Both the position numbers and the translations under genes were made by a program. The notes below the pieces were generated by a model that worked only from the letters and a program-made list of their open reading frames with translations, was not told the DNA's origin and searched no databases. From an uncultured delta proteobacterium (GTDB taxonomy: Bacteria; Desulfobacterota; Binatia; Binatales; Binataceae), in contig CAWAMM010000001.1 of the NCBI GenBank assembly GCA_963783145.1, positions 547,347 to 611,346 on the forward strand: a DNA stretch of 64,000 bases, read 5' to 3'. How positions within the stretch are numbered: the first letter of the stretch is position 1; every line of letters begins with the position of its first letter. Below are positions 52,247 through 61,111 of the stretch, piece by piece.

Positions 52247-54703
52247 CTAAAGCGGCGCGCCGCCACCGATCTCGAAAACGTTGCTCTGATCCTGCGGACG
52301 CGGGTTGACGGGGCGCGCCACGTCGACCGCGAGCGGACCGAACGGCGAACGCCATCGGATGCCGATTCCATACGCCGCCTGCAGCGAGCTGGGCGTGATG
52401 CTCTGAGAGAGATTATAGGCCTGACCCGCATCGGCAAACACGACGCCACGAATTCCCAAGCCGGAGAGAATCGGGAAACTGATCTCGCCATCCAGGAGCA
52501 GCTCCTTGCTGCCTCCGGTGTTTTCGATTTGGAGTGGAGTGCCGTCCTGATTCAGTAACAATACCTCGGGGCCCAAAGAATAAAGCTGATAGCCGCGAAC
52601 GTCGCCTTGACCACCGACACCGCCGGGGAAAAATCGCTCGTAGAGCGGAAGCTCGTTGCCCTGCCCGGGTGAAAGCGTAGTCCCGATCCCGTACGTGACC
52701 CCTGGAGAGAACACCCACTGACCGAAGGTCGCGCTCTTGAGGAAGGTGTAGTAAAGGCGCGCGTGCACCAGCGCCTTAATGAAGGCGACGCCCGGGCCGA
52801 TGCCCGCCAGCTCCACGTTCAGGCTTTCAATCGAACCGCTGCGCGGATCGATGGGGTTGTCTACCGTGGCGCGCCGAATACTCGGGATCAGCTCAGAAAC
52901 TTGCGTATATCCCTTGTACTTGGCGATCTGGTAGGTGGTGAACGGCGACAAACCGCCGATGCCGACGCTCTCGAACTGGTAGCCCAATCCGGCCCGCACA
53001 TCCTTCAGCGAGAAGGGCCCCAGGTTCTTAAACCCCAGCTCGGCGAGTGGGTAGCTGGAATTGACCGCGCCCCCGGCCGCATTTTGATGGAAGGTGAAGA
53101 GGTCGGTTTTGCTGTCGAAGATCGACAGCGACACCGCCAGCGGGATATCGAGGAACCAGGGCTCGGTATAACTCGCAGTATAGTTTTGAAACAGGAAGCC
53201 GATTTGTGCGCTAAGTAGCACCGCCTCGCCGCCGCCGAACAAATTGGTATTGCCAAGCTGGAAATGCCCGAACACCGACTGGTAGCTGTCGAAACCGCCG
53301 GCCACCTGAAATGAGGCGGTGTTCTGCTCGGCTACGTCAACATTGAGATCCACCTTGTCCGGCTGCGCGGAGGGTGCGGTGGTGATGCGAGTGGTGCTGA
53401 AAAAGCCCAGCTGGTCGAGGCGGCGCTTGGAATCGCGAATCGCGGAAGCGGAGTAGGGCTCCTGTTCCTGCACCTGCATCTCGCGGCGGATGACCTTGTC
53501 CGAGGTCCGGGTGTTGCCGCTGATGTTGATGCGGTTGACCAGCACCTCGCGGCCGGGGTTGACGCTGAAGGTGATATTGACTTTGCGCGCGGCCGGCTCT
53601 AGCGCAGTCTTGGGTTCCACGTCGACGAAGGCATAGCCGCGATCAGAATAAAAGTCCGACAAGGTCAGCACGTCATGTTGCAGCGTCGATCCGCGGAAGT
53701 CCGCGCCAGGTTTGGTGGTTATCAAGGGGACCAATTCGCTGCGCGGATACTTCAGGTCGCCGGCGACATCGACGCTCCCGACTTTGTAGATTGGCCCCTC
53801 ATCGATGGGGATCGTCACCTTGAGTCCCTTGGGTATGCGGCTGATAACGGGCTCGCCGACGTGGACGTTCAAGTAGCCGTGATCGTAGTAAAAAGCCGCG
53901 ATCCGATCGGTGTCCTCACGCAGTTTCTTTTGATCGAGCACGCCCGCGGTGGTGACCAGACTAAGCAGCGGGATGTATTTGGTGGTATCCATCTGGCCGC
54001 GCAATTCGCGGGCGCTGAAAGCGTGATTGCCGGTGAAATCGACCTCGCGGATGTAGACCTTCGGCCCTTCGGTGACGACGAAGGTTCCGACCTCGGTGTT
54101 GTTGGCCCCGAATTGTTCCTGATAGTCCACCTTGGTGTCGGAAAAGCCCTTACCCTCGTATACTTCCTTGATCTCTTTTTCGGTTTCCTTGACCCGGGTC
54201 GGATCCAGAATCGAGCCGGGATGGATCTTCATCGCCGCGACGATCTTATCGTCGGTGGTGCGGACCTCCTTCATCCCGGTGATCTTCACATCGGTAACTT
54301 GCGGCCGTTCGGTGACCTTGTAAACCAGGACTTCCTTGCCCTTCTCGTTGCGAGTATCGGCGGTGACGTTTTGAAAAAAGCCCATCTTGTAAATGGACTT
54401 GATGTCCTCGCTGACCGCGGCGTTGTTGAGTGGTTCGCCGGTCCGTTGCGAGATATGGAGGCGGATGGCGTCGCTTTCGACGCGCTGATTACCTTCGATC
54501 TGGATGTCGGAAATGATCGGATTTTGGGCGCGCGCGATGTTGCCGCTCAGCAGCAGCGTCAATGATAACAGTACCCCGAGCGCGCCAGGCCACCGCGCGT
54601 TGCATCTTCCGATTGCCACCAATGTCCACCCAAACGCTCGCCAAGCTAACCAATCATGGTTGCTATGTAAACCTGAGATGCCGCGCGCGCGATTCATAGC
54701 CAT
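52247..54703 (-). CDS. bamA: Outer membrane protein assembly factor BamA (Omp85)
   Basis: The 818-aa product has five POTRA-like repeats and a C-terminal 16-strand barrel ending ...FEIGGGAPL. Confidence 0.9.
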   Translation of the reverse strand: MAMNRARGISGLHSNHDWLAWRAFGWTLVAIGRCNARWPGALGVLLSLTLLLSGNIARAQNPIISDIQIEGNQRVESDAIRLHISQRTGEPLNNAAVSEDIKSIYKMGFFQNVTADTRNEKGKEVLVYKVTERPQVTDVKITGMKEVRTTDDKIVAAMKIHPGSILDPTRVKETEKEIKEVYEGKGFSDTKVDYQEQFGANNTEVGTFVVTEGPKVYIREVDFTGNHAFSARELRGQMDTTKYIPLLSLVTTAGVLDQKKLREDTDRIAAFYYDHGYLNVHVGEPVISRIPKGLKVTIPIDEGPIYKVGSVDVAGDLKYPRSELVPLITTKPGADFRGSTLQHDVLTLSDFYSDRGYAFVDVEPKTALEPAARKVNITFSVNPGREVLVNRINISGNTRTSDKVIRREMQVQEQEPYSASAIRDSKRRLDQLGFFSTTRITTAPSAQPDKVDLNVDVAEQNTASFQVAGGFDSYQSVFGHFQLGNTNLFGGGEAVLLSAQIGFLFQNYTASYTEPWFLDIPLAVSLSIFDSKTDLFTFHQNAAGGAVNSSYPLAELGFKNLGPFSLKDVRAGLGYQFESVGIGGLSPFTTYQIAKYKGYTQVSELIPSIRRATVDNPIDPRSGSIESLNVELAGIGPGVAFIKALVHARLYYTFLKSATFGQWVFSPGVTYGIGTTLSPGQGNELPLYERFFPGGVGGQGDVRGYQLYSLGPEVLLLNQDGTPLQIENTGGSKELLLDGEISFPILSGLGIRGVVFADAGQAYNLSQSITPSSLQAAYGIGIRWRSPFGPLAVDVARPVNPRPQDQSNVFEIGGGAPL

Positions 54704-54713
54704 GCGGGACGCA

Positions 54714-55445
54714 CTAAACGCGCGGCTCGTCGTAGAGCTTGCCGTCCTTCAGTCGCAACGCGCGCCCCATGCTCCGCGTCAGCCGTTCATTATGCGTCGC
54801 GACGATCAGGGTCACGTCGAGCTCGCGATTAAGTTTATGAAACAGCTCATGGACCTCATCCGCGGTATGGGGGTCGAGATTGCCGGTCGGCTCGTCCGCC
54901 AGCACCAGGCGCGGGCTCTGCACCACCGCCCGCGCGACCGCGACGCGCTGTTGCTCGCCGCCGGATAATTCGGCGGGCCGTCGATGCAGTTTGTCCCCGA
55001 GCCCAACCATCGCGAGCATCCGCTCGGCGCGCTCGCGCGCTTCGCGCTCAGGCACGCGCCCGATCAGCGCCGGCATCATCACGTTTTCCAACGCGTTGAA
55101 ATCGGCGAGCAGGTAATGAAACTGGAACACGAAGCCGAGTTTGCGATTGCGGAAATCCGCCAGCGCGCGCTCGTCGAGGGCGAACAGATCCAGTCCCTCG
55201 AAGAGCACTTTGCCGCTGCTCGGCCGCTCCAGGCTGCCGAGGATGTTCAGCAGCGTCGATTTGCCGGTGCCCGATTGCCCCACCACTGCGATCAGCTCGC
55301 CGGCCGCGACGGTCAGCGAGAGATCCTGCAGCACCCGGATTTCGCGATCGACATCGTGGAAATTCTTCGAGATTCCCGTCGCGATAATCAGCGGATTGAT
55401 GGCCGCGGTCAGAGCGGCGGCCGCGCCCACCGCGGCGTCACTCAT
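54714..55445 (-). CDS. lolD: Lipoprotein-releasing ABC transporter ATP-binding protein
   Basis: Walker A (GQSGTGKST), signature (LSGGEQQR) and Walker B motifs are present. Confidence 0.8.
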
Positions 55446-56721
55446 AACGAATCACCTCGACCGGCGAGAGCGAGCGCGCCTTGAGCGCCGGATACAGCGC
55501 CGCCACCAGGCAGAGCAGCATCGACGCGAGGCCCACCAAAACGAAGTTCAGTGGATAAATGCGCACCGGCACGTAGCTGATCATGAACATATCGGCGGGC
55601 AACTTTATCAGATGATACTTGCCGATCGCCCATGAGGTGAGGAAGCCGGTGCCGGTGCCGAGCACCGTGCCGACCACCCCGAGCACCGCGCCTTCGGTCA
55701 GGAAGATCGCCGCGACCGAACCGGCCCGCGCGCCCATCGCGCGCAGGATCGCGATTTCCTTGCGCCGCTCCATCACCACCATCACCAGTGTCGCGATGAT
55801 GTTGAATGCCGCCACCAGCACGATCAGCATCAGCACCAGAAAGTAGGTGAACTTCTCCAGTTGCAGAGCCGAGAACAGCGGCGCGTTCTCGGTGGTCCAG
55901 TCCTTCACTGAAAAGCCCGGTCCGGCGAGGGCCGCGATCTTCTCCGCGATCGCGGGGGCGTCAAACATATCCTTGAGGCGCGCCTCGAGGCCGGATTCGA
56001 GTTGCGGATCATCCGCCAATAGCGCGCGGCCGGCTTTGAGATCGACGAAGATGAGCGTGGAGTCGAAATCATACATGCCGGAATAGAAAAATCCGGTTAC
56101 CACGAATCGTTTGAGGCGCGGACTGCCTGCCGCACCGGCCAGGCTCGCGGGCGATATCAAGGTGATAGTGTCGCCGACCCGCAGCGCGCCAAGGTCCAGT
56201 GAAAGAGTGCGGCCCAAAATCGCGCCGGGTAGGTCGACCTGCCGTTTGACGCCATTGTCGACGACTTCCACCGGATGCATCTCAGAGAGCGACGCGAGAC
56301 TTCCCGAATCCAGCGTGCTTTTCAGTTCGGTCAGGACCGGATTGTCGGTAGCGATCACGCCGCGCAACATTCCGCCCGCCATGTATGACGGCGCGCCGGT
56401 GGGCGTCGTTCCCACTGCCATCACCTGCGAGGTGACGAACGGTGCCACCGCGAGAACCCCCGGCATCGAGGCGATCTGCTTGCGCAGCGCATCGGGATTC
56501 CAGACCTGCCCATCGGAGCGCTCGACCACGATTTGCGGGGTGAAGGCGAGCAGGCGCGCGCGCAAATCGACCTGGAATCCGCTCATCACCGAGAGCGCCA
56601 CCGTCAATGCGAATGTCCCCAGGGTCACACCCGCCAGCGAGATAATCGCGATGAGCGAGACGAAGCGTTCGCGCCGTCGCGCGCGGAGGTAACGCATTCC
56701 TATAAGGTATTCAAAACGCAT
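55438..56721 (-). CDS. lolC: Lipoprotein-releasing system permease (LolC/E, FtsX-like)
   Basis: The 427-aa product has an N-terminal TM, a large periplasmic loop and a C-terminal FtsX domain. It overlaps lolD by 8 nt. Confidence 0.8.
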   Translation of the reverse strand: MRFEYLIGMRYLRARRRERFVSLIAIISLAGVTLGTFALTVALSVMSGFQVDLRARLLAFTPQIVVERSDGQVWNPDALRKQIASMPGVLAVAPFVTSQVMAVGTTPTGAPSYMAGGMLRGVIATDNPVLTELKSTLDSGSLASLSEMHPVEVVDNGVKRQVDLPGAILGRTLSLDLGALRVGDTITLISPASLAGAAGSPRLKRFVVTGFFYSGMYDFDSTLIFVDLKAGRALLADDPQLESGLEARLKDMFDAPAIAEKIAALAGPGFSVKDWTTENAPLFSALQLEKFTYFLVLMLIVLVAAFNIIATLVMVVMERRKEIAILRAMGARAGSVAAIFLTEGAVLGVVGTVLGTGTGFLTSWAIGKYHLIKLPADMFMISYVPVRIYPLNFVLVGLASMLLCLVAALYPALKARSLSPVEVIRYE

Positions 56722-56868
56722 GGGGGATGGCCGCGACTATGCTTTCTGAGCGATGGGGCATTTGCAACGCCACGCGAATTTGCACGAAGCAGTCCGTGGC
56801 GCCTTCTCGGCTCCGGCGGCGGCATCCCGTGGCGTCCGAAGGTTTGGAAGCCTCCCACGCGCGGAGGT

Positions 56869-57945
56869 TCAATCGCTGTCTTGGTCAAAGCCGGGTGGCA
56901 ATTGCGCCTCCCTGGCGTTCGGTTTCCGGCTCTTAAGCCTCGCCAATAGAGACGGAACGCTGGCGGTCAAGTCGTTCGGCAGGGTGCGCAAGGCGGAGTC
57001 GTCGAACGAAAGATTCAGGTACTCGATTGCCAACTGCGCGACCGCCTCGCCCTGACGAAAGTCTCGCTTGCGTTTCATCGGGTTGCGGGTGGGTTGCAGC
57101 GACAACCAAATTTTGTGCAGTGCGAAGACTCGCGGATCAGGAACCACGAAGCGGGTCGGGAATCCATTCTCGGCGATCACGATCTGGGAAAATTTCGGAC
57201 CCGCAATAAGCCAGTCGAGGCCGGTTATTTGTTCAGCGATAAGGTCTTTGCCCATTCCGATGCTTGGGAGAGCGCTTTTGCCCGGTTGTATCGAGATGGG
57301 CCGCAACAATTCGACCATGAAACCCTTTGCGTTGACCGCTCGGAAACTGCGTTCACGCGCCGGCGCGAAGCTCTTGTCGACAGTCTTTAAGAGACCGAGA
57401 AGGCCGAGTTTTCTGGTTCGAACCGCGATCTCCAGCGGTGAATTTGGATCGATCAGTGTATCGAGGTCATCGGTCTGAAGCAGTCCGGCTTTGAACTGCA
57501 CACCCGCCGCCGCTTCGTACGCATACAGCGAGTGGCTTCCCAGTAGTATCAGATGGGTTCCGAGCAGACCGGCGCTGTCGAGGACTCTGGCGATATCCAC
57601 TGAAATCCTTGGTACTCGATTGACCTCGGCGGCGACGCAGAATTTTGCTCTTCGCTGGAGCTCCGATCGAACCGAGGCAGAGCGGGCGCGAAGGGCTTTT
57701 TTTCGGGCGGTAAATTCGCGAAAGAGAACTTCGGTTTGTGGCGAGCGCGGACCGAGCGACCGGATGTGTCCTTCCCGATCCAGACTGCGCACCAGGTAGT
57801 CGCGGCCTTTTACGGTTTTCCAGAACATGCCGCCGGCGATCTCGCGGGTTTCCTTGGCGAATTCGAGGAAATGGTCATAGAGCTGAATCGCGTCTGCGGC
57901 GAGCCGTCGTTGCTCGGCGGTTAGTTCTCGCCATTGCGAAGCCAT
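56869..57945 (-). CDS. Nucleotidyltransferase-fold protein (Pol-beta superfamily GS...DxD), function unknown
   Basis: LILLGSHSLYAYEAAAGVQFKAGLLQTDDLDTLID carries the hG[GS]...DhD signature. An ATG at 57945 is preceded by an AGGAAA Shine-Dalgarno sequence. From memory it may resemble the GSU2403-type NTase family; this needs an HMM search. Confidence 0.5.
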   Translation of the reverse strand: MASQWRELTAEQRRLAADAIQLYDHFLEFAKETREIAGGMFWKTVKGRDYLVRSLDREGHIRSLGPRSPQTEVLFREFTARKKALRARSASVRSELQRRAKFCVAAEVNRVPRISVDIARVLDSAGLLGTHLILLGSHSLYAYEAAAGVQFKAGLLQTDDLDTLIDPNSPLEIAVRTRKLGLLGLLKTVDKSFAPARERSFRAVNAKGFMVELLRPISIQPGKSALPSIGMGKDLIAEQITGLDWLIAGPKFSQIVIAENGFPTRFVVPDPRVFALHKIWLSLQPTRNPMKRKRDFRQGEAVAQLAIEYLNLSFDDSALRTLPNDLTASVPSLLARLKSRKPNAREAQLPPGFDQDSD

Positions 57946-57950
57946 GGTTA

Positions 57951-58170
57951 GTTTCCTATCAGATGACTTACAATGAGACAATGATAGGAAACCTAGGAGG
58001 AAATTACTTATCGCGCGAATTATTCGCGTGATTATCCTTGATTTACACCATTTCCGATAAGCGCGGTCGGTTTCCTATCAAGCAATTGATCCGAAGAAAT
58101 GATAGGAAACAAGACCCATTACGAATTTTTTTCCTATATTTTTGCGCAATTAGAGTCTTTTATAGGAAAA
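57951..58170. repeat. Array of three inverted-repeat units (GTTTCCTATCA - ~20 nt - TGATAGGAAAC) in an AT-rich divergent promoter region
   Basis: Unit 1 is 57951-57961 with 57982-57992. Unit 2 is 58070-58080 with 58100-58110, both half-sites perfect. Unit 3 is the degenerate TTTCCTATA 58130-58138 with TATAGGAAAA 58161-58170. Local GC is about 38% against about 64% overall. Confidence 0.5.
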
Positions 58171-58492
58171 TCGGTTAGTTCGTGGTTCGACGTCACCCTC
58201 AATCGCTCCGCTCCCAAACCGATTCCGGCTATCGCGCGACTTTTCCGAGGGGTGGCCGTCCTTCATGCAAAGTCTCTCTCCTTGCTGCGGCGATGCGCAT
58301 TGAGCGGAGACCTGGGAAGAGCAAACGGGGCGATTTATGGGGCGGCCGATCATCGTGACCTGCCAGCCAATGCAGGGCGACCTGTAACGAGGCTCAATTT
58401 CCTTCGTAACGAGTGCGGATGGAATTCAGTTGTTCCAAGGGACGCCTCTTTATAAACTTCGCGGCAACCTCTATTTTTTTCGGGGGTCTTGA

Positions 58493-61111
58493 ATGATGCG
58501 GCGTCGTAGTGGGGCTTGGATCAGCGCCCTCCTGTTTACGGTTTGCACCGCGAGTTTAATTTCCCTTGCGCTCGCATTCCCGGTGCGGGCGGCCAATCGT
58601 CCGCCGGATAGCGAAATTACGATGAACTTCCAGAACGTCGACCTCCCGGCGCTGGCCAAGTTCATCAGCGAAATTACCGGCAAAAATTTCCTGGTCGACG
58701 AGAGCGTGCGGGGCAAGATCACGATCATTTCGCCGTCCAAGGTTACCCCCGATCAGGCCTACCAGATTTTCCAATCGGTCTTGCAGCTTAAGGGATTTAC
58801 CACCGAAACCGCCGGCCAGGTGATCAAGATTATTCCCTCGCGCGATGTCCGCCAGTCCGCGCCGGTTACCGAATCACAGCAGCCGTTTGAACAACATGGC
58901 GATGAGTACGTCACGCGGCTGGTGAAGCTGCGCAATGCCGACGTCAGTTCGATGCTCAGCGTCATCCAGCCGATGATCTCGCATGATGGACTGGTTGCCG
59001 CATTTCCCGACGACAATACCCTCATCATCACCGACGATGCCTACAACGTGCAGCGACTGCTGAGAATCGTGGGCAGCCTGGATGTCGTGGGTCAGCACAA
59101 GGCCATCGAGGTCATACCGCTGCAATACGCGTTCGCCGATGAAGTCGCTCCCGAAATCGAACAATTGCTCGGCGGCAGCTCGGGAGCCGGCCGTCCGGGG
59201 CAGCCGCAGCCGGGAGTAGTTGCGCCGTCGGCCCAGGCACCGACCGGACAATTCAAGGTGCTGGCCGACCAGCGCACCAATTCCATCATCGCGGCGGGCG
59301 GGCCACTGCAGATGCAGGCGATTCACGATGTGATTGCGAAGCTCGACATCCGCTCGCCCGACGCAATGCATCGGATCCATGTCTACCGGCTTAAAAATGC
59401 GGCCGTCTCGGACATGATCGAGGTCTTGGGCGGGCTCATCGGTGGAGGAGGCGGGGTCGGCAGCCTGTCGCCTACTACCGGCAAGGGCTCGCTCGGGCGC
59501 GGCAGTGGCGCGGGTGGCGCGATGAATTCCGGTTTCGGCGGCGGCTACGGAGGTGGCGGCTATGGCGGGGGCGGCTTCGGCGGGAGCGGCTATGGAGGAA
59601 GCTCGATCGGCGGAGGTTCGTTCAGTGGAGGGATCACCGGCGGTGGAATGATGGGCGGGAGTAGCTTTGGAAGCTCCTTTGGGAGCTCCGGCACGAGCGG
59701 GCTTGGAGGCCGCGGGGCGGGTGGTATGAGCGGCGGAGCGGGCGGACCCGGTGGCGGAGGAGTGCGCACCTCGGACTTTACCAGCCGGGTTACCATGACA
59801 GCCGATCCTGCCACCAATGCTCTCGTGATCAGCGCGGCTCCGCAGGACTGGGAAGTCTTGCGCAACATTATCGCGGAGCTCGATGTGCCGCGGATCCAGG
59901 TATTCGTCCAGGCCATCATTGTCGAGGTGAGCTCGGAGCGGCAGCGCCAGATGGGCGTGGACTTTCAGGCCGCGACGTCGATATCGCATAGCGTTCTGGG
60001 ACTGGGGAACGTCAACTTCGGAAACATTCAGACGGCGCTGGGAAATCCGCTCGGATTGACCGGACTCGGGCTGGGCCTGGCGTCGGGCAGCTCATGTGTC
60101 ATTCCCGCGGCGGCCGCGGCGGTCGCAGGTACGACCACTGGTACCACGACCACGATGACGGTGCCATGCGATGTGGCCTTGGTGACGGCGTTGCAGGCGG
60201 ATACGCATTCCAACGTGCTGTCGGCGCCGACGCTGCTGACCGCGGATAACGAGGAAGCGACCATCGTGGTCGGGGAAAACCTGCCGTTCGTGGGGTCGTC
60301 GGCGGCGAATGCAGGCCTGCCGGGGCAAATCTTCAACAGCGTTAACCGGCAGAATGTCGGAATCACCCTCGATATCGTGCCGCAGGTGGCGGATGGTGAC
60401 TATGTGCGGCTGGACCTGTATGAGGAAGTATCCAACGTGCTTGGGAGCACGGCCAACAATCCCTTGGGTCCGACCACGACAATTCGGTCTGCATCAACTA
60501 CGGTCCTAATACAAAATCATCGCACCGCAGTCATCGGCGGATTGATGTCCAATAACGAAAATCTCTCACGTCAGGGAATACCGTGGATTTCGGATATCCC
60601 CGTACTCGGAAATATCTTTTCCGATACCTCGACCGATAAGCAGAAGGACAATCTCCTGGTGTTCCTGACCCCGCACGTGGTGCGCAACAAGACCGATCTG
60701 CGCTCGCTCGCACTGGATCAGCGTGCCCGATTCACCAATACGCTGGGACCTCATGAGATGCATGATATGCCGGAGAGCTCGATACGTTCCCTGTACGATC
60801 CGACTTTCTCGGTCTCGGTGCCGCCGGCGGCCGACCTGAACATGCAAAATAACACCCCTGCGAGGGCGCCCGCTTCTGGCGCGGTGCCCGAGGGAGACAA
60901 GCCTACCCCGTTCAATACCGAGGAGATTCCCGCGCCGACGTCGTCATCGGGAGCGCCCGGCGCGGCGCTGAAAGCCCCGGTCGCGGCAGGGAGCACGGTC
61001 GCGCCGCCGGTTGCAACCTCGACCAGCGCGACTCCTCCCGCGATGGCATCCGCTGATCCAGCGGTGGCCCCTGCGAGCGCAGTTTCTTCGGCGCCTGCCG
61101 GGTCCCCGTAA
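58493..61111 (+). CDS. Secretin (GspD/PilQ superfamily) with a Gly/Tyr/Ser-rich low-complexity insert and an Ala/Pro-rich C-terminal tail
   Basis: A signal peptide, N0-like domain (ITMNFQNVDLPALAKFISEITGKNFLVDESV) and N1-N3-like domains are present. The secretin core is LSAPTLLTADNEEATIVVGENLPF...AVIGGLM...IPWISDIPVLGNIFS...LLVFLTPHVV. Confidence 0.85.
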   Translation: MMRRRSGAWISALLFTVCTASLISLALAFPVRAANRPPDSEITMNFQNVDLPALAKFISEITGKNFLVDESVRGKITIISPSKVTPDQAYQIFQSVLQLKGFTTETAGQVIKIIPSRDVRQSAPVTESQQPFEQHGDEYVTRLVKLRNADVSSMLSVIQPMISHDGLVAAFPDDNTLIITDDAYNVQRLLRIVGSLDVVGQHKAIEVIPLQYAFADEVAPEIEQLLGGSSGAGRPGQPQPGVVAPSAQAPTGQFKVLADQRTNSIIAAGGPLQMQAIHDVIAKLDIRSPDAMHRIHVYRLKNAAVSDMIEVLGGLIGGGGGVGSLSPTTGKGSLGRGSGAGGAMNSGFGGGYGGGGYGGGGFGGSGYGGSSIGGGSFSGGITGGGMMGGSSFGSSFGSSGTSGLGGRGAGGMSGGAGGPGGGGVRTSDFTSRVTMTADPATNALVISAAPQDWEVLRNIIAELDVPRIQVFVQAIIVEVSSERQRQMGVDFQAATSISHSVLGLGNVNFGNIQTALGNPLGLTGLGLGLASGSSCVIPAAAAAVAGTTTGTTTTMTVPCDVALVTALQADTHSNVLSAPTLLTADNEEATIVVGENLPFVGSSAANAGLPGQIFNSVNRQNVGITLDIVPQVADGDYVRLDLYEEVSNVLGSTANNPLGPTTTIRSASTTVLIQNHRTAVIGGLMSNNENLSRQGIPWISDIPVLGNIFSDTSTDKQKDNLLVFLTPHVVRNKTDLRSLALDQRARFTNTLGPHEMHDMPESSIRSLYDPTFSVSVPPAADLNMQNNTPARAPASGAVPEGDKPTPFNTEEIPAPTSSSGAPGAALKAPVAAGSTVAPPVATSTSATPPAMASADPAVAPASAVSSAPAGSP

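What the first reader, a model, noticed from the sequence alone, without database searches (positions are those of the whole stretch)
57946..58492. AT-rich (~38% GC) divergent intergenic region with three tandem inverted-repeat units between an NTase-like gene and an orphan secretin
**Seen in sequence**
- Unit 1: GTTTCCTATCA (57951-61), a 20-nt spacer, then TGATAGGAAAC (57982-92).
- Unit 2: an identical pair of perfect half-sites with a 19-nt spacer (58070-80 and 58100-10).
- Unit 3: a degenerate pair, TTTCCTATA with TATAGGAAAA.
- An extra CGCGAAT-T-ATTCGCG palindrome lies at 58012-58026.
- The region is a 547-bp AT-rich island in a 64%-GC genome.
- The first half-site ends 5 nt before the NTase-like gene's ATG and supplies its Shine-Dalgarno sequence (AGGAAA).
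- The secretin gene starts about 320 nt beyond unit 3.

**Inference**
- Eleven-bp half-sites separated by about two helical turns, iterated three times, suggest cooperative binding of a dimeric or tetrameric regulator.
- Alternatively the region is a xenogeneic-silencer (H-NS-like) target.
- Alternatively the repeats are iteron-like.
- On RNA each unit could also fold as an 11-bp stem with a 20-nt loop.

I do not recognise the half-site as any textbook operator: it is not a LexA, Fur, CRP, PhoB or sigma-54 site.
Basis: seen in the sequence. Interest (0 to 1): 0.65.

Follow-up and report, generated by a model that had tools for sequence, protein, structure and literature searches.

The report
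Conserved operator of an uncharacterised nucleotidyltransferase gene
The three inverted repeats are real and form a control element that accompanies one family of poorly understood nucleotidyltransferase genes across many bacterial phyla, most likely a DNA site through which the gene's own product shuts off its promoter; they have nothing to do with the neighbouring secretin.

Summary
There are two perfect 11-bp inverted-repeat units (57951-57992, 58070-58110) and a degenerate third (58129-58170). This is the only such motif in the 64-kb window.

The AT-rich tract is 235 bp at 37% GC, not 547 bp. The window is 60% GC, not 64%.

The repeats belong to the leftward gene, a PF12281 / "GSU2403-family" nucleotidyltransferase-fold protein, not to the secretin.
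- In 67 of 71 distinct metagenomic homologue loci and 9 of 10 proteobacterial plasmid homologues, the same architecture sits at the same place: 11-bp arms, a 19-20-nt non-conserved spacer, and a proximal unit ending at the start codon. A second unit usually lies 65-95 bp upstream.
- Genomic neighbourhoods are unrelated, and the element survives next to pseudogenes.
- Arm sequences are lineage-specific. The geometry is universal.
- In about half of the loci a TTGACA box lies exactly 8 nt before the most upstream arm. That puts this arm inside a sigma-70 promoter, with the transcription start in the spacer.

Best reading: promoter-embedded operators for autorepression by the gene's own product, which is the only gene conserved in the module. 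The binder is inferred, not shown.

Main rival: an RNA hairpin that sequesters the ribosome-binding site.

REP element, iteron and generic H-NS target are rejected.

The parts
57951..57992 (-). Unit 1, the proximal operator. On the gene's sense (- strand) it reads GTTTCCTATCA-N20-TGATAGGAAAC. The 3' arm on the sense strand (57951-57961) carries the Shine-Dalgarno-like AGGAAA (57952-57957), and the arm ends 5 nt before the ATG.
   Evidence: A unit at the same position (5' arm about -41 from the start codon) is present in 65 of 71 distinct homologue loci.
58070..58110 (-). Unit 2, the distal operator: identical perfect arms with a 19-nt spacer, 118 bp upstream of unit 1 on the sense strand.
   Evidence: 51 of 71 homologue loci have a second unit.
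58129..58170 (-). Unit 3, a degenerate third operator. On the sense strand it reads TTTTCCTATAA-N20-ATATAGGAAAA. The TATAA-type arm matches the variant used by homologues L070 and L071.
   Evidence: The closest relative, L045 (82% protein identity), also has three units.
56869..57945 (-). Gene for a 358-aa PF12281 (NTP_transf_8) protein, named by NCBI a 'GSU2403 family nucleotidyltransferase fold protein'. It has an unannotated, conserved N-terminal domain (residues 1-112). It is the proposed autoregulator.
   Evidence: Pfam E=1.2e-49. Homologue names. N-terminal domain conservation. The AF2 model shows helix, three strands, helix.
58014..58028 (.). CGCGAAT-T-ATTCGCG palindrome between units 1 and 2. 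It is not conserved outside this species, its role is unknown, and it is probably not part of the conserved element.
   Evidence: I14. Absent from the aligned relatives.

Best explanation
**Proposed mechanism**
- The three units are DNA operators of the PF12281 nucleotidyltransferase gene.
- Each unit is a pair of about 11-bp half-sites in head-to-head orientation. Their centres are 31 bp apart, about three helical turns, so both lie on one face of the DNA.
- A dimer, or two subunits of a larger oligomer, of a sequence-specific protein binds each unit.
- The most upstream unit overlaps the core promoter, and the proximal unit covers the ribosome-binding site and start codon. Occupancy therefore blocks RNA polymerase. 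Several units probably act cooperatively, by looping or oligomerisation.
- The binder is most likely the gene's own product, through its uncharacterised N-terminal domain. This would make a self-contained, negatively autoregulated single-gene module that moves between genomes and plasmids.

**Shown**
- The element, its conservation, its geometry and its position relative to the promoter and start codon.
- Lineage-specific arm sequences.
- The absence of any conserved partner gene.

**Inferred**
- That the element acts as DNA rather than RNA.
- That it represses.
- That the binder is the PF12281 protein.
- That binding is cooperative.
For: 1. **The element follows the gene, not the neighbourhood.** Exact-motif hits in two other Binatia genomes sit directly upstream of PF12281 pseudogenes, next to SPFH and SecA genes. 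Other contexts include PHP/PtsP, DUF2844 and plasmid genes.
2. **It is nearly universal in the family.** 67 of 71 distinct metagenomic loci have at least one unit and 51 have two. The proximal 5' arm lies at about -38 to -42.
3. **The geometry is rigid.** The spacer is 19 or 20 nt in 121 of 124 units, and its sequence is not conserved.
4. **The most upstream unit sits inside a promoter.** TTGA lies exactly 14-11 nt before the arm of the most upstream unit in 34 of 65 loci, and TTGACA matches at 5 of 6 or better in 30 of 65. For downstream units the figure is 1 of 57. This gives TTGACA, a 17-bp spacer containing arm positions 1-9, and a CAAAAT -10 box. Transcription would then start inside the spacer, so that unit's 5' arm is not transcribed. 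Single-unit loci follow the same rule (L082, L119, L131, L133, L127).
5. **Arms differ between lineages while geometry holds.** Examples are GTTTTCCTTCA, GTTTCAACAGT, TTTGCCAACT, AATTGTCCCGT, TTTTACCTGTA, GTTTCAGTATA and TTTGTTGTCGC. Two Cereibacter paralogue lineages (37% identical) have different arms. This fits a binder that co-evolves with the site.
6. **No neighbouring gene is conserved.** This held for ORFs of 35 aa or more.
7. **Mismatches are not RNA-like.** Arm mismatches are mainly T.T, A.A and A.G at arm position 8, not G.U. In some loci the ATG lies inside the 3' arm.
8. **Only the arms are conserved** among the window's closest relatives.
Against: - In the window's own sub-lineage no sigma-70-like -35/-10 is detectable at any unit. 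Here all three units could be transcribed.
- Symmetric changes in the arms are also what an RNA stem would show.
- The hairpins would be stable as RNA: -17.3, -13.5 and -7.5 kcal/mol.
- No binding, transcription-start or expression data exist for any member.
Confidence: 0.55

Rival explanations
1. RNA-level control. Each unit folds in the 5' UTR as an 11-bp stem with a 20-nt loop. The proximal hairpin sequesters the Shine-Dalgarno sequence or start codon. The 3' arm of the distal unit can instead pair with the 5' arm of the proximal unit, giving a switch between 1:2 + 3:4 and 2:3 pairings that frees the ribosome-binding site. A protein, perhaps the nucleotidyltransferase itself, may bind the hairpins.
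For: - Predicted hairpins are stable, with z-scores of -3.2 to -3.6.
- The 3' arm of unit 1 contains the Shine-Dalgarno sequence.
- Pairing is kept through changes on both sides across lineages: 3-4 Watson-Crick pair types at arm positions 5, 6, 7, 9 and 10.
- Within one locus the two units can differ at arm position 8 while each stays complementary (L048, L060).
- Segments 2 and 3 are perfectly complementary in the window (I5).
- No promoter is recognisable inside the window's own units.
Against: - In about half of all loci the 5' arm of the most upstream or only unit lies between the -35 and -10 boxes, so it would not be transcribed.
- Loop length is fixed at 19-20 nt across phyla with no loop sequence conservation. 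This is unusual for an RNA.
- The distal unit has no adjacent start codon.
- Mismatches are mostly not wobble pairs: 90 'other' against 35 sense G.U and 21 A.C.
- Arm sequence is invariant across loci whose proteins are only about 40% identical to the window's protein. That is more than pairing alone requires.
- There is no Rfam match.
Confidence: 0.2
2. The units are operators for a host-encoded transcription factor, or for a factor encoded elsewhere on a mobile element, rather than for the PF12281 protein itself. The nucleotidyltransferase gene would then belong to a wider regulon.
For: - The PF12281 protein shows no recognisable DNA-binding domain.
- HTH/XRE genes lie next to the gene on 2 of 10 plasmids.
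- GSU2403 is up-regulated in Geobacter ihf mutants (PMC7962754), so host factors can influence expression.
Against: - The motif occurs nowhere else in the 64-kb window.
- In one genome per species across 185,579 species, the only high-GC Binatia-type exact hits are at PF12281 loci.
- Arm sequences change with the protein lineage, even within one genus.
- No neighbouring gene is conserved.
- The module keeps its operators after transfer between phyla and onto plasmids.
Confidence: 0.13
3. The region is a generic AT-rich horizontally acquired tract silenced by nucleoid-associated proteins, or a repeated extragenic palindrome, MITE or iteron, with no gene-specific function.
For: - A 235-bp tract has 37% GC in a 60% GC window.
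- The nucleotidyltransferase gene has slightly lower GC than its neighbours and sits in variable contexts, so it is probably mobile.
Against: - The motif is single-locus.
- The repeats are inverted, not direct, and there is no replication or transposase gene.
- Position relative to the start codon is precisely conserved in nearly all homologues.
- Only the arms are conserved, not AT-richness as such.
Confidence: 0.04

Closest known systems
AbiEi/AbiEii type IV toxin-antitoxin autoregulation (from memory: AbiEi binds inverted repeats in the abiE promoter; AbiEii is a DUF1814 nucleotidyltransferase-fold toxin)
   Same: Both are mobile modules centred on a nucleotidyltransferase-fold protein. Both have paired inverted repeats in their own promoter, more than one repeat unit, and presumed cooperative negative autoregulation.
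   Different: - Here there is one gene, not two.
- The nucleotidyltransferase domain is PF12281, not DUF1814/PF08843.
- There is no winged-helix antitoxin and no PADLOC hit.
- Half-sites are separated by 20 bp.
Multi-operator repression by looping (lac O1/O2/O3, gal OE/OI; textbook knowledge)
   Same: There are two or three copies of one palindromic operator. One overlaps the promoter and one lies downstream near the start of the gene. Spacing is 60-120 bp, as is typical of looping. Inter-unit distances cluster at about 69, 80 and 92 bp.
   Different: - The binder is unknown.
- Each operator spans 42 bp with a long non-specific centre.
- No effector or ligand is known.
Shine-Dalgarno-sequestering RNA hairpins (RNA thermometers, translational attenuators)
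   Same: The 3' arm of the proximal unit contains the Shine-Dalgarno sequence or start codon, and the 5' arm is a pyrimidine-rich complement. A four-segment alternative pairing is possible.
   Different: - The 5' arm of the most upstream unit lies inside the promoter in many loci.
- Loop length is fixed at 19-20 nt.
- Arms are conserved in sequence.
- There is no Rfam family.
Bipartite recognition with a fixed non-specific spacer, such as tandem NrdR boxes about three helical turns apart or Type I restriction HsdS subunits whose coiled coil sets the spacer (from memory)
   Same: There are two specific elements at a rigid distance equal to a whole number of helical turns. The predicted N-terminal domain has two long helices that could act as a spacer ruler.
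   Different: - The function here is gene regulation, not restriction.

Membership tests
REP/BIME-type repeated extragenic palindrome or MITE | Many copies dispersed in intergenic regions of one genome | tested here: not met
   Zero-mismatch half-sites occur only at 57951-58110 in the 64 kb. In the scan of one genome per species, exact units in Binatia-type genomes occur only at PF12281 loci.
Iterons of a replication origin | Tandem direct repeats of about 17-22 bp next to a rep gene or origin | tested here: not met
   The units are inverted repeats. The neighbours are the nucleotidyltransferase, LolE and secretin genes.
Promoter-embedded repressor operator (sigma-70 promoter) | Operator half-site overlaps the -35/-10 region or transcription start at a fixed register | tested here: inconclusive
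   Met at family level: TTGA lies 14-11 nt before the most upstream arm in 34 of 65 loci, against 10 of 57 downstream units, and TTGACA at 5 of 6 or better in 30 of 65 against 1 of 57. Not met in this window: no sigma-70-like site was found in 57850-58600, and no -35 is conserved in the closest relatives.
Promoter-embedded repressor operator (sigma-70 promoter) | Sequence-specific protein binding and repression | not testable with these tools
   This needs EMSA, footprinting, ChIP and reporter assays.
Autoregulated module (binder encoded in cis) | The site co-occurs and co-varies with the gene, and no other conserved gene is present | tested here: met
   67 of 71 metagenomic loci and 9 of 10 plasmid loci carry the element. 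Arms are lineage-specific. There is no conserved neighbour.
Cis-regulatory RNA (Shine-Dalgarno-sequestering hairpin, Rfam family) | Match to a curated RNA family | tested here: not met
   Rfam cmscan of 57000-59500 at E<=1 gave only a chance snoRNA hit outside the region.
Cis-regulatory RNA (Shine-Dalgarno-sequestering hairpin, Rfam family) | Both arms transcribed, and pairing kept with tolerance for G.U | tested here: inconclusive
   Pairing is kept and the hairpins would be stable. However, the 5' arm lies in the promoter spacer in about half of the loci, and mismatches are mostly not wobble pairs.
AbiE type IV toxin-antitoxin system | Two-gene operon abiEi (winged-helix antitoxin) plus abiEii (DUF1814) | tested here: not met
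   There is a single gene, the Pfam hit is PF12281 only, there is no PADLOC hit, and there is no conserved partner.
H-NS-like xenogeneic silencing target | AT-rich curved DNA bound by a nucleoid-associated protein without a specific conserved motif | tested here: inconclusive
   AT-richness is present (37% over 235 bp). Conservation, however, is confined to a precise motif. Binding cannot be tested here.

The most novel reading that the evidence does not exclude
PF12281/GSU2403-family proteins are single-polypeptide, self-repressing nucleotidyltransferases. A previously unrecognised N-terminal domain (helix, three-stranded sheet, long helix) would be a new sequence-specific DNA-reading module. 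It would recognise 11-bp half-sites held three helical turns apart, and its specificity would diversify lineage by lineage together with the operator. The arrangement would resemble a fused regulator-toxin or defence gene that carries its own switch wherever it is transferred.
Probability: 0.4. Interest if true: 0.6.

Novelty: new variant of a known kind. Interest (0 to 1): 0.5.

Why it matters
**An entry point into an uncharacterised family.** PF12281 / "GSU2403 family" proteins are widespread.
- Hundreds of homologues were found here, in Binatia and in unidentified AT-rich metagenomic lineages, and on alpha-, beta- and gammaproteobacterial plasmids.
- I found no functional study of the family.

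**What the element offers**
- A family-wide, precisely positioned operator with lineage-specific half-sites gives the first concrete handle.
- It predicts tight negative autoregulation, as is typical of toxic or defence-type mobile genes.
- It predicts a DNA-binding activity for an unannotated domain.
- It supplies dozens of natural operator-protein pairs for decoding specificity.

**Annotation.** The AT-rich tract should be assigned to the nucleotidyltransferase gene, not to secretin regulation.

Tried and rejected
- **Rfam scan of the region.** Nothing relevant.
- **Simple sigma-70 and terminator scan of the window region.** No promoter-like site.
- **Looking for a DNA-binding fold in the protein.**
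  - PADLOC and NCBIfam gave nothing.
  - Pfam on the N-terminal domain and PDB sequence searches gave nothing.
- **Conserved partner gene or small ORF beside the gene.** None was found. One apparent cluster was an antisense artefact of the conserved 3' end of the gene. The upstream ORFs in the Bradyrhizobium and Cereibacter plasmids are unrelated to each other.
- **My guess that a Binatia subclade places the gene between lolD and bamA.** This was wrong. The neighbours are a PHP-domain protein and PtsP.
- **ORFs inside the intergenic region** (58099-58455 + and 58150-58353 -). They have no family hits, implausible sequences and no conservation in relatives.
- **Literature.**
  - There were no hits for PF12281 or NTP_transf_8.
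  - The only paper naming GSU2403 lists it in an RNA-seq table.
  - Hits for the motif strings were unrelated primers.
- **Published transcription-start map for the Xanthomonas 85-10 plasmid homologue (PMC3300014).** The supplementary table is not held.
- **Homologues in phage genomes.** None.

Full report
**1. The observation**

The sequence shows the following.
- GTTTCCTATCA at 57951-57961 pairs with TGATAGGAAAC at 57982-57992, spacer 20.
- The same perfect pair lies at 58070-58080 and 58100-58110, spacer 19.
- A degenerate third unit has perfect 10-bp arms at 58129-58138 and 58161-58170.

Read in the register of the family, the third unit is TTTTCCTATAA-N20-ATATAGGAAAA on the gene's sense strand.

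The four perfect 11-mers are the only zero-mismatch copies in 64 kb. Perfect 11-bp inverted repeats with a 15-25-nt spacer are expected about 0.001 times in shuffles of the AT-rich tract, and two are seen.

- The window is 60.3% GC, not 64%.
- The intergenic region as a whole is 48.1% GC. Only 57946-58180 (235 bp) is AT-rich, at 37.0%.
- The extra palindrome lies at 58014-58028.

**2. The flanking genes**

- *Leftward gene.* 56869-57945 on the - strand encodes 358 aa and is PF12281 NTP_transf_8 (E=1.2e-49). NCBI names its homologues 'GSU2403 family nucleotidyltransferase fold protein'.
- *Rightward gene.* 58493-61111 is a GspD-type secretin.
- *Further left.* lolE, lolD and bamA follow.
- *Source organism.* A Candidatus Binataceae metagenome-assembled genome.

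**3. The element belongs to the nucleotidyltransferase gene**

I scanned one genome per species (185,579 species) for TTTCCTATCA-N15-25-TGATAGGAAA. It returned 38 loci.
- Most were ordinary hairpins in low-GC genomes.
- The two hits in relatives of the source organism both lie directly upstream of decayed PF12281 genes: L007, a Binataceae genome, and L034, a 58%-GC MAG labelled Deltaproteobacteria that I take to be a relative. Each has a second, degenerate unit about 100 bp further up.
- Their neighbourhoods are unrelated: SPFH/proC in L007 and secA in L034.

A metagenome scan with a protein alignment gave 80 loci, 71 with distinct upstream regions.
- 67 have at least one unit, 51 have two and 3 have three.
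- The proximal 5' arm lies at about -38 to -42 from the start codon.
- The spacer is 19 or 20 nt in 121 of 124 units, with no spacer sequence conservation.

Arm sequences differ by lineage.
- Close relatives (52-94% identity) use TTTCCT[A/T/C]TCA.
- Homologues at 40-45% identity from AT-rich organisms use GTTTTCCTTCA...TGAAGGAAAAC almost invariantly.

Ten proteobacterial plasmid homologues (33-40% identity) were inspected.
- Nine have an inverted repeat at -41 to -45. The spacer is 20 nt in six of them and ranges from 18 to 24.
- Their arms are entirely different: GTTTCAACAGT, TTTGCCAACT, AATTGTCCCGT, TTTTACCTGTA, TTATCCCT, TTTATCCTTC, GTTTCAGTATA, TTTGTTGTCGC and TTTTGGTACC.
- Two paralogue lineages in Cereibacter (37% identical) have different arms.

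No neighbouring gene or small ORF is conserved. Among the window's closest relatives only the arms are conserved.

**4. DNA or RNA?**

Symmetric changes in the arms fit both a palindromic operator that co-evolves with its binder and an RNA stem. The discriminating evidence is as follows.

- *Promoter register.*
  - In 34 of 65 loci the most upstream unit is preceded by TTGA exactly 14-11 nt before the arm. TTGACA matches at 5 of 6 or better in 30 of 65.
  - For downstream units the figure is 1 of 57.
  - The register is TTGACA, then 8 nt, then arm positions 1-9 (a 17-bp spacer in total), then CA+AAAT as the -10 box.
  - Transcription would therefore start inside the 20-nt spacer, and the 5' arm of that unit is not in the RNA.
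  - Single-unit loci obey the same rule.
- *Spacer length.* It is fixed at 19-20 nt across phyla. That gives 31 bp centre-to-centre, about three helical turns, which is natural for a protein ruler and not for a loop.
- *Mismatch types.* Non-Watson-Crick cells are mostly T.T, A.A or A.G at arm position 8, not G.U. The totals are 90 'other', 35 sense G.U and 21 A.C.
- *The distal unit.* It has the same arms but no adjacent start codon. In some loci the ATG lies inside the proximal 3' arm.

Evidence on the other side:
- The hairpins would be stable if transcribed: -17.3, -13.5 and -7.5 kcal/mol.
- In the window's own sub-lineage I could find no promoter inside the units.
- A translational contribution of the proximal hairpin therefore cannot be excluded here.
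- Any transcript that starts in the distal unit necessarily carries segments 2, 3 and 4, which can pair as 2:3 or 3:4.

**5. Who binds?**

This step is inference. The module has one conserved gene. It keeps its operators in unrelated genomes, on plasmids and beside pseudogenes. The arm sequence changes with the protein lineage. The simplest reading is autoregulation by the PF12281 protein.

- Its N-terminal 112 residues are conserved, with the motif GGMxWKxxxGxxYL...SLGPRS.
- AF2 models them with pLDDT 76-92 as a short strand, a long helix, a three-stranded sheet and a long helix.
- They match no Pfam or PDB family and no informative fold.
- A DNA-binding role is therefore plausible but not shown.

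**6. Comparison with known systems**

- *What it works like.* It resembles classical multi-operator autorepression of the lac/gal looping type, and the self-repressed promoters of toxin-antitoxin modules. AbiE is the closest case, and its toxin also has a nucleotidyltransferase fold.
- *AbiE membership.* It is not an AbiE member. There is one gene, the domain is PF12281 rather than DUF1814, and there is no PADLOC hit.
- *Other families.* It is not a REP element, an iteron or an Rfam RNA.
- *Literature.* I found no description of the family's function or of this motif.

**7. Verdict**

This is a real, strongly conserved cis-element. It belongs to a known general kind, the autoregulatory operator. 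What is new is an unusual 11-20-11 geometry attached to an uncharacterised, widely transferred nucleotidyltransferase family. It is unrelated to the secretin.

- Confidence is about 0.75 that the element acts as a DNA operator.
- Confidence is about 0.55 for the full statement that includes self-binding.
- Interest is moderate, at 0.5.

Noticed in passing
window 58014-58028: A perfect CGCGAAT-T-ATTCGCG palindrome lies between units 1 and 2. It extends to 11-nt arms at 91% complementarity (58010-58032). It is present in the same-species contigs but not conserved in the closest relatives, and its role is unknown.
   Followed up: partly
L007 3589-4642 (- strand) and L034 3990-4180: The PF12281 genes are decayed: L007 carries a frameshifted copy split into two ORFs, and L034 keeps only an N-terminal remnant. 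Both still keep two operator units. The cis-element has so far persisted alongside decayed coding sequence.
   Followed up: partly
L045-L124 (all two-unit loci): Centre-to-centre distances between successive units cluster at about 69, 80 and 92 bp, steps of roughly one helical turn. Rayleigh R is 0.40-0.48 for periods of 10.5-12.5 bp with n=52. This suggests face-of-helix phasing for looping. The loci are not phylogenetically independent, however, and the window's own spacings (118 and 60) do not fit neatly.
   Followed up: partly
L077, L102, L106 and others, proximal unit: In several AT-rich homologues the start codon lies inside the proximal 3' arm (TGATGGAAAAC, encoding M-E-N). The 3' arm therefore does not always serve as the Shine-Dalgarno sequence.
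   Followed up: partly
window 58076-58088 (+ strand, unit 2): TATCAAGCAATTG matches the IHF consensus WATCAANNNNTTR as I recall it from memory. Separately, GSU2403 is listed as up-regulated in both ihf mutants of Geobacter sulfurreducens (PMC7962754). The match is present in only one unit and is not general in the family.
   Followed up: no
window 52247-61111 and L001 context: The nucleotidyltransferase module sits between a lone GspD-type secretin and the lolE-lolD-bamA-ompH-lpx outer-membrane biogenesis cluster. No other type II secretion or pilus genes are adjacent; the next gene is a lipid A acyltransferase. In other Binatia the same module lies between a PHP-domain gene and ptsP, or next to DUF2844/DUF3443 genes. 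It therefore looks like a small mobile insertion.
   Followed up: partly
window 59300-59900: The secretin contains a long Gly/Ser-rich low-complexity insert (about residues 320-440). It shows locally high GC (up to 71%) and strong positive GC skew.
   Followed up: no
L008, L022, L023, L036 (Nostoc): Four Nostoc genomes share a conserved hairpin, TTTCCTATCAATAAA...TTTATTGATAGGAAA, with near-identical flanks. It is probably a Nostoc-specific repeat or terminator and is unrelated to the PF12281 element.
   Followed up: no
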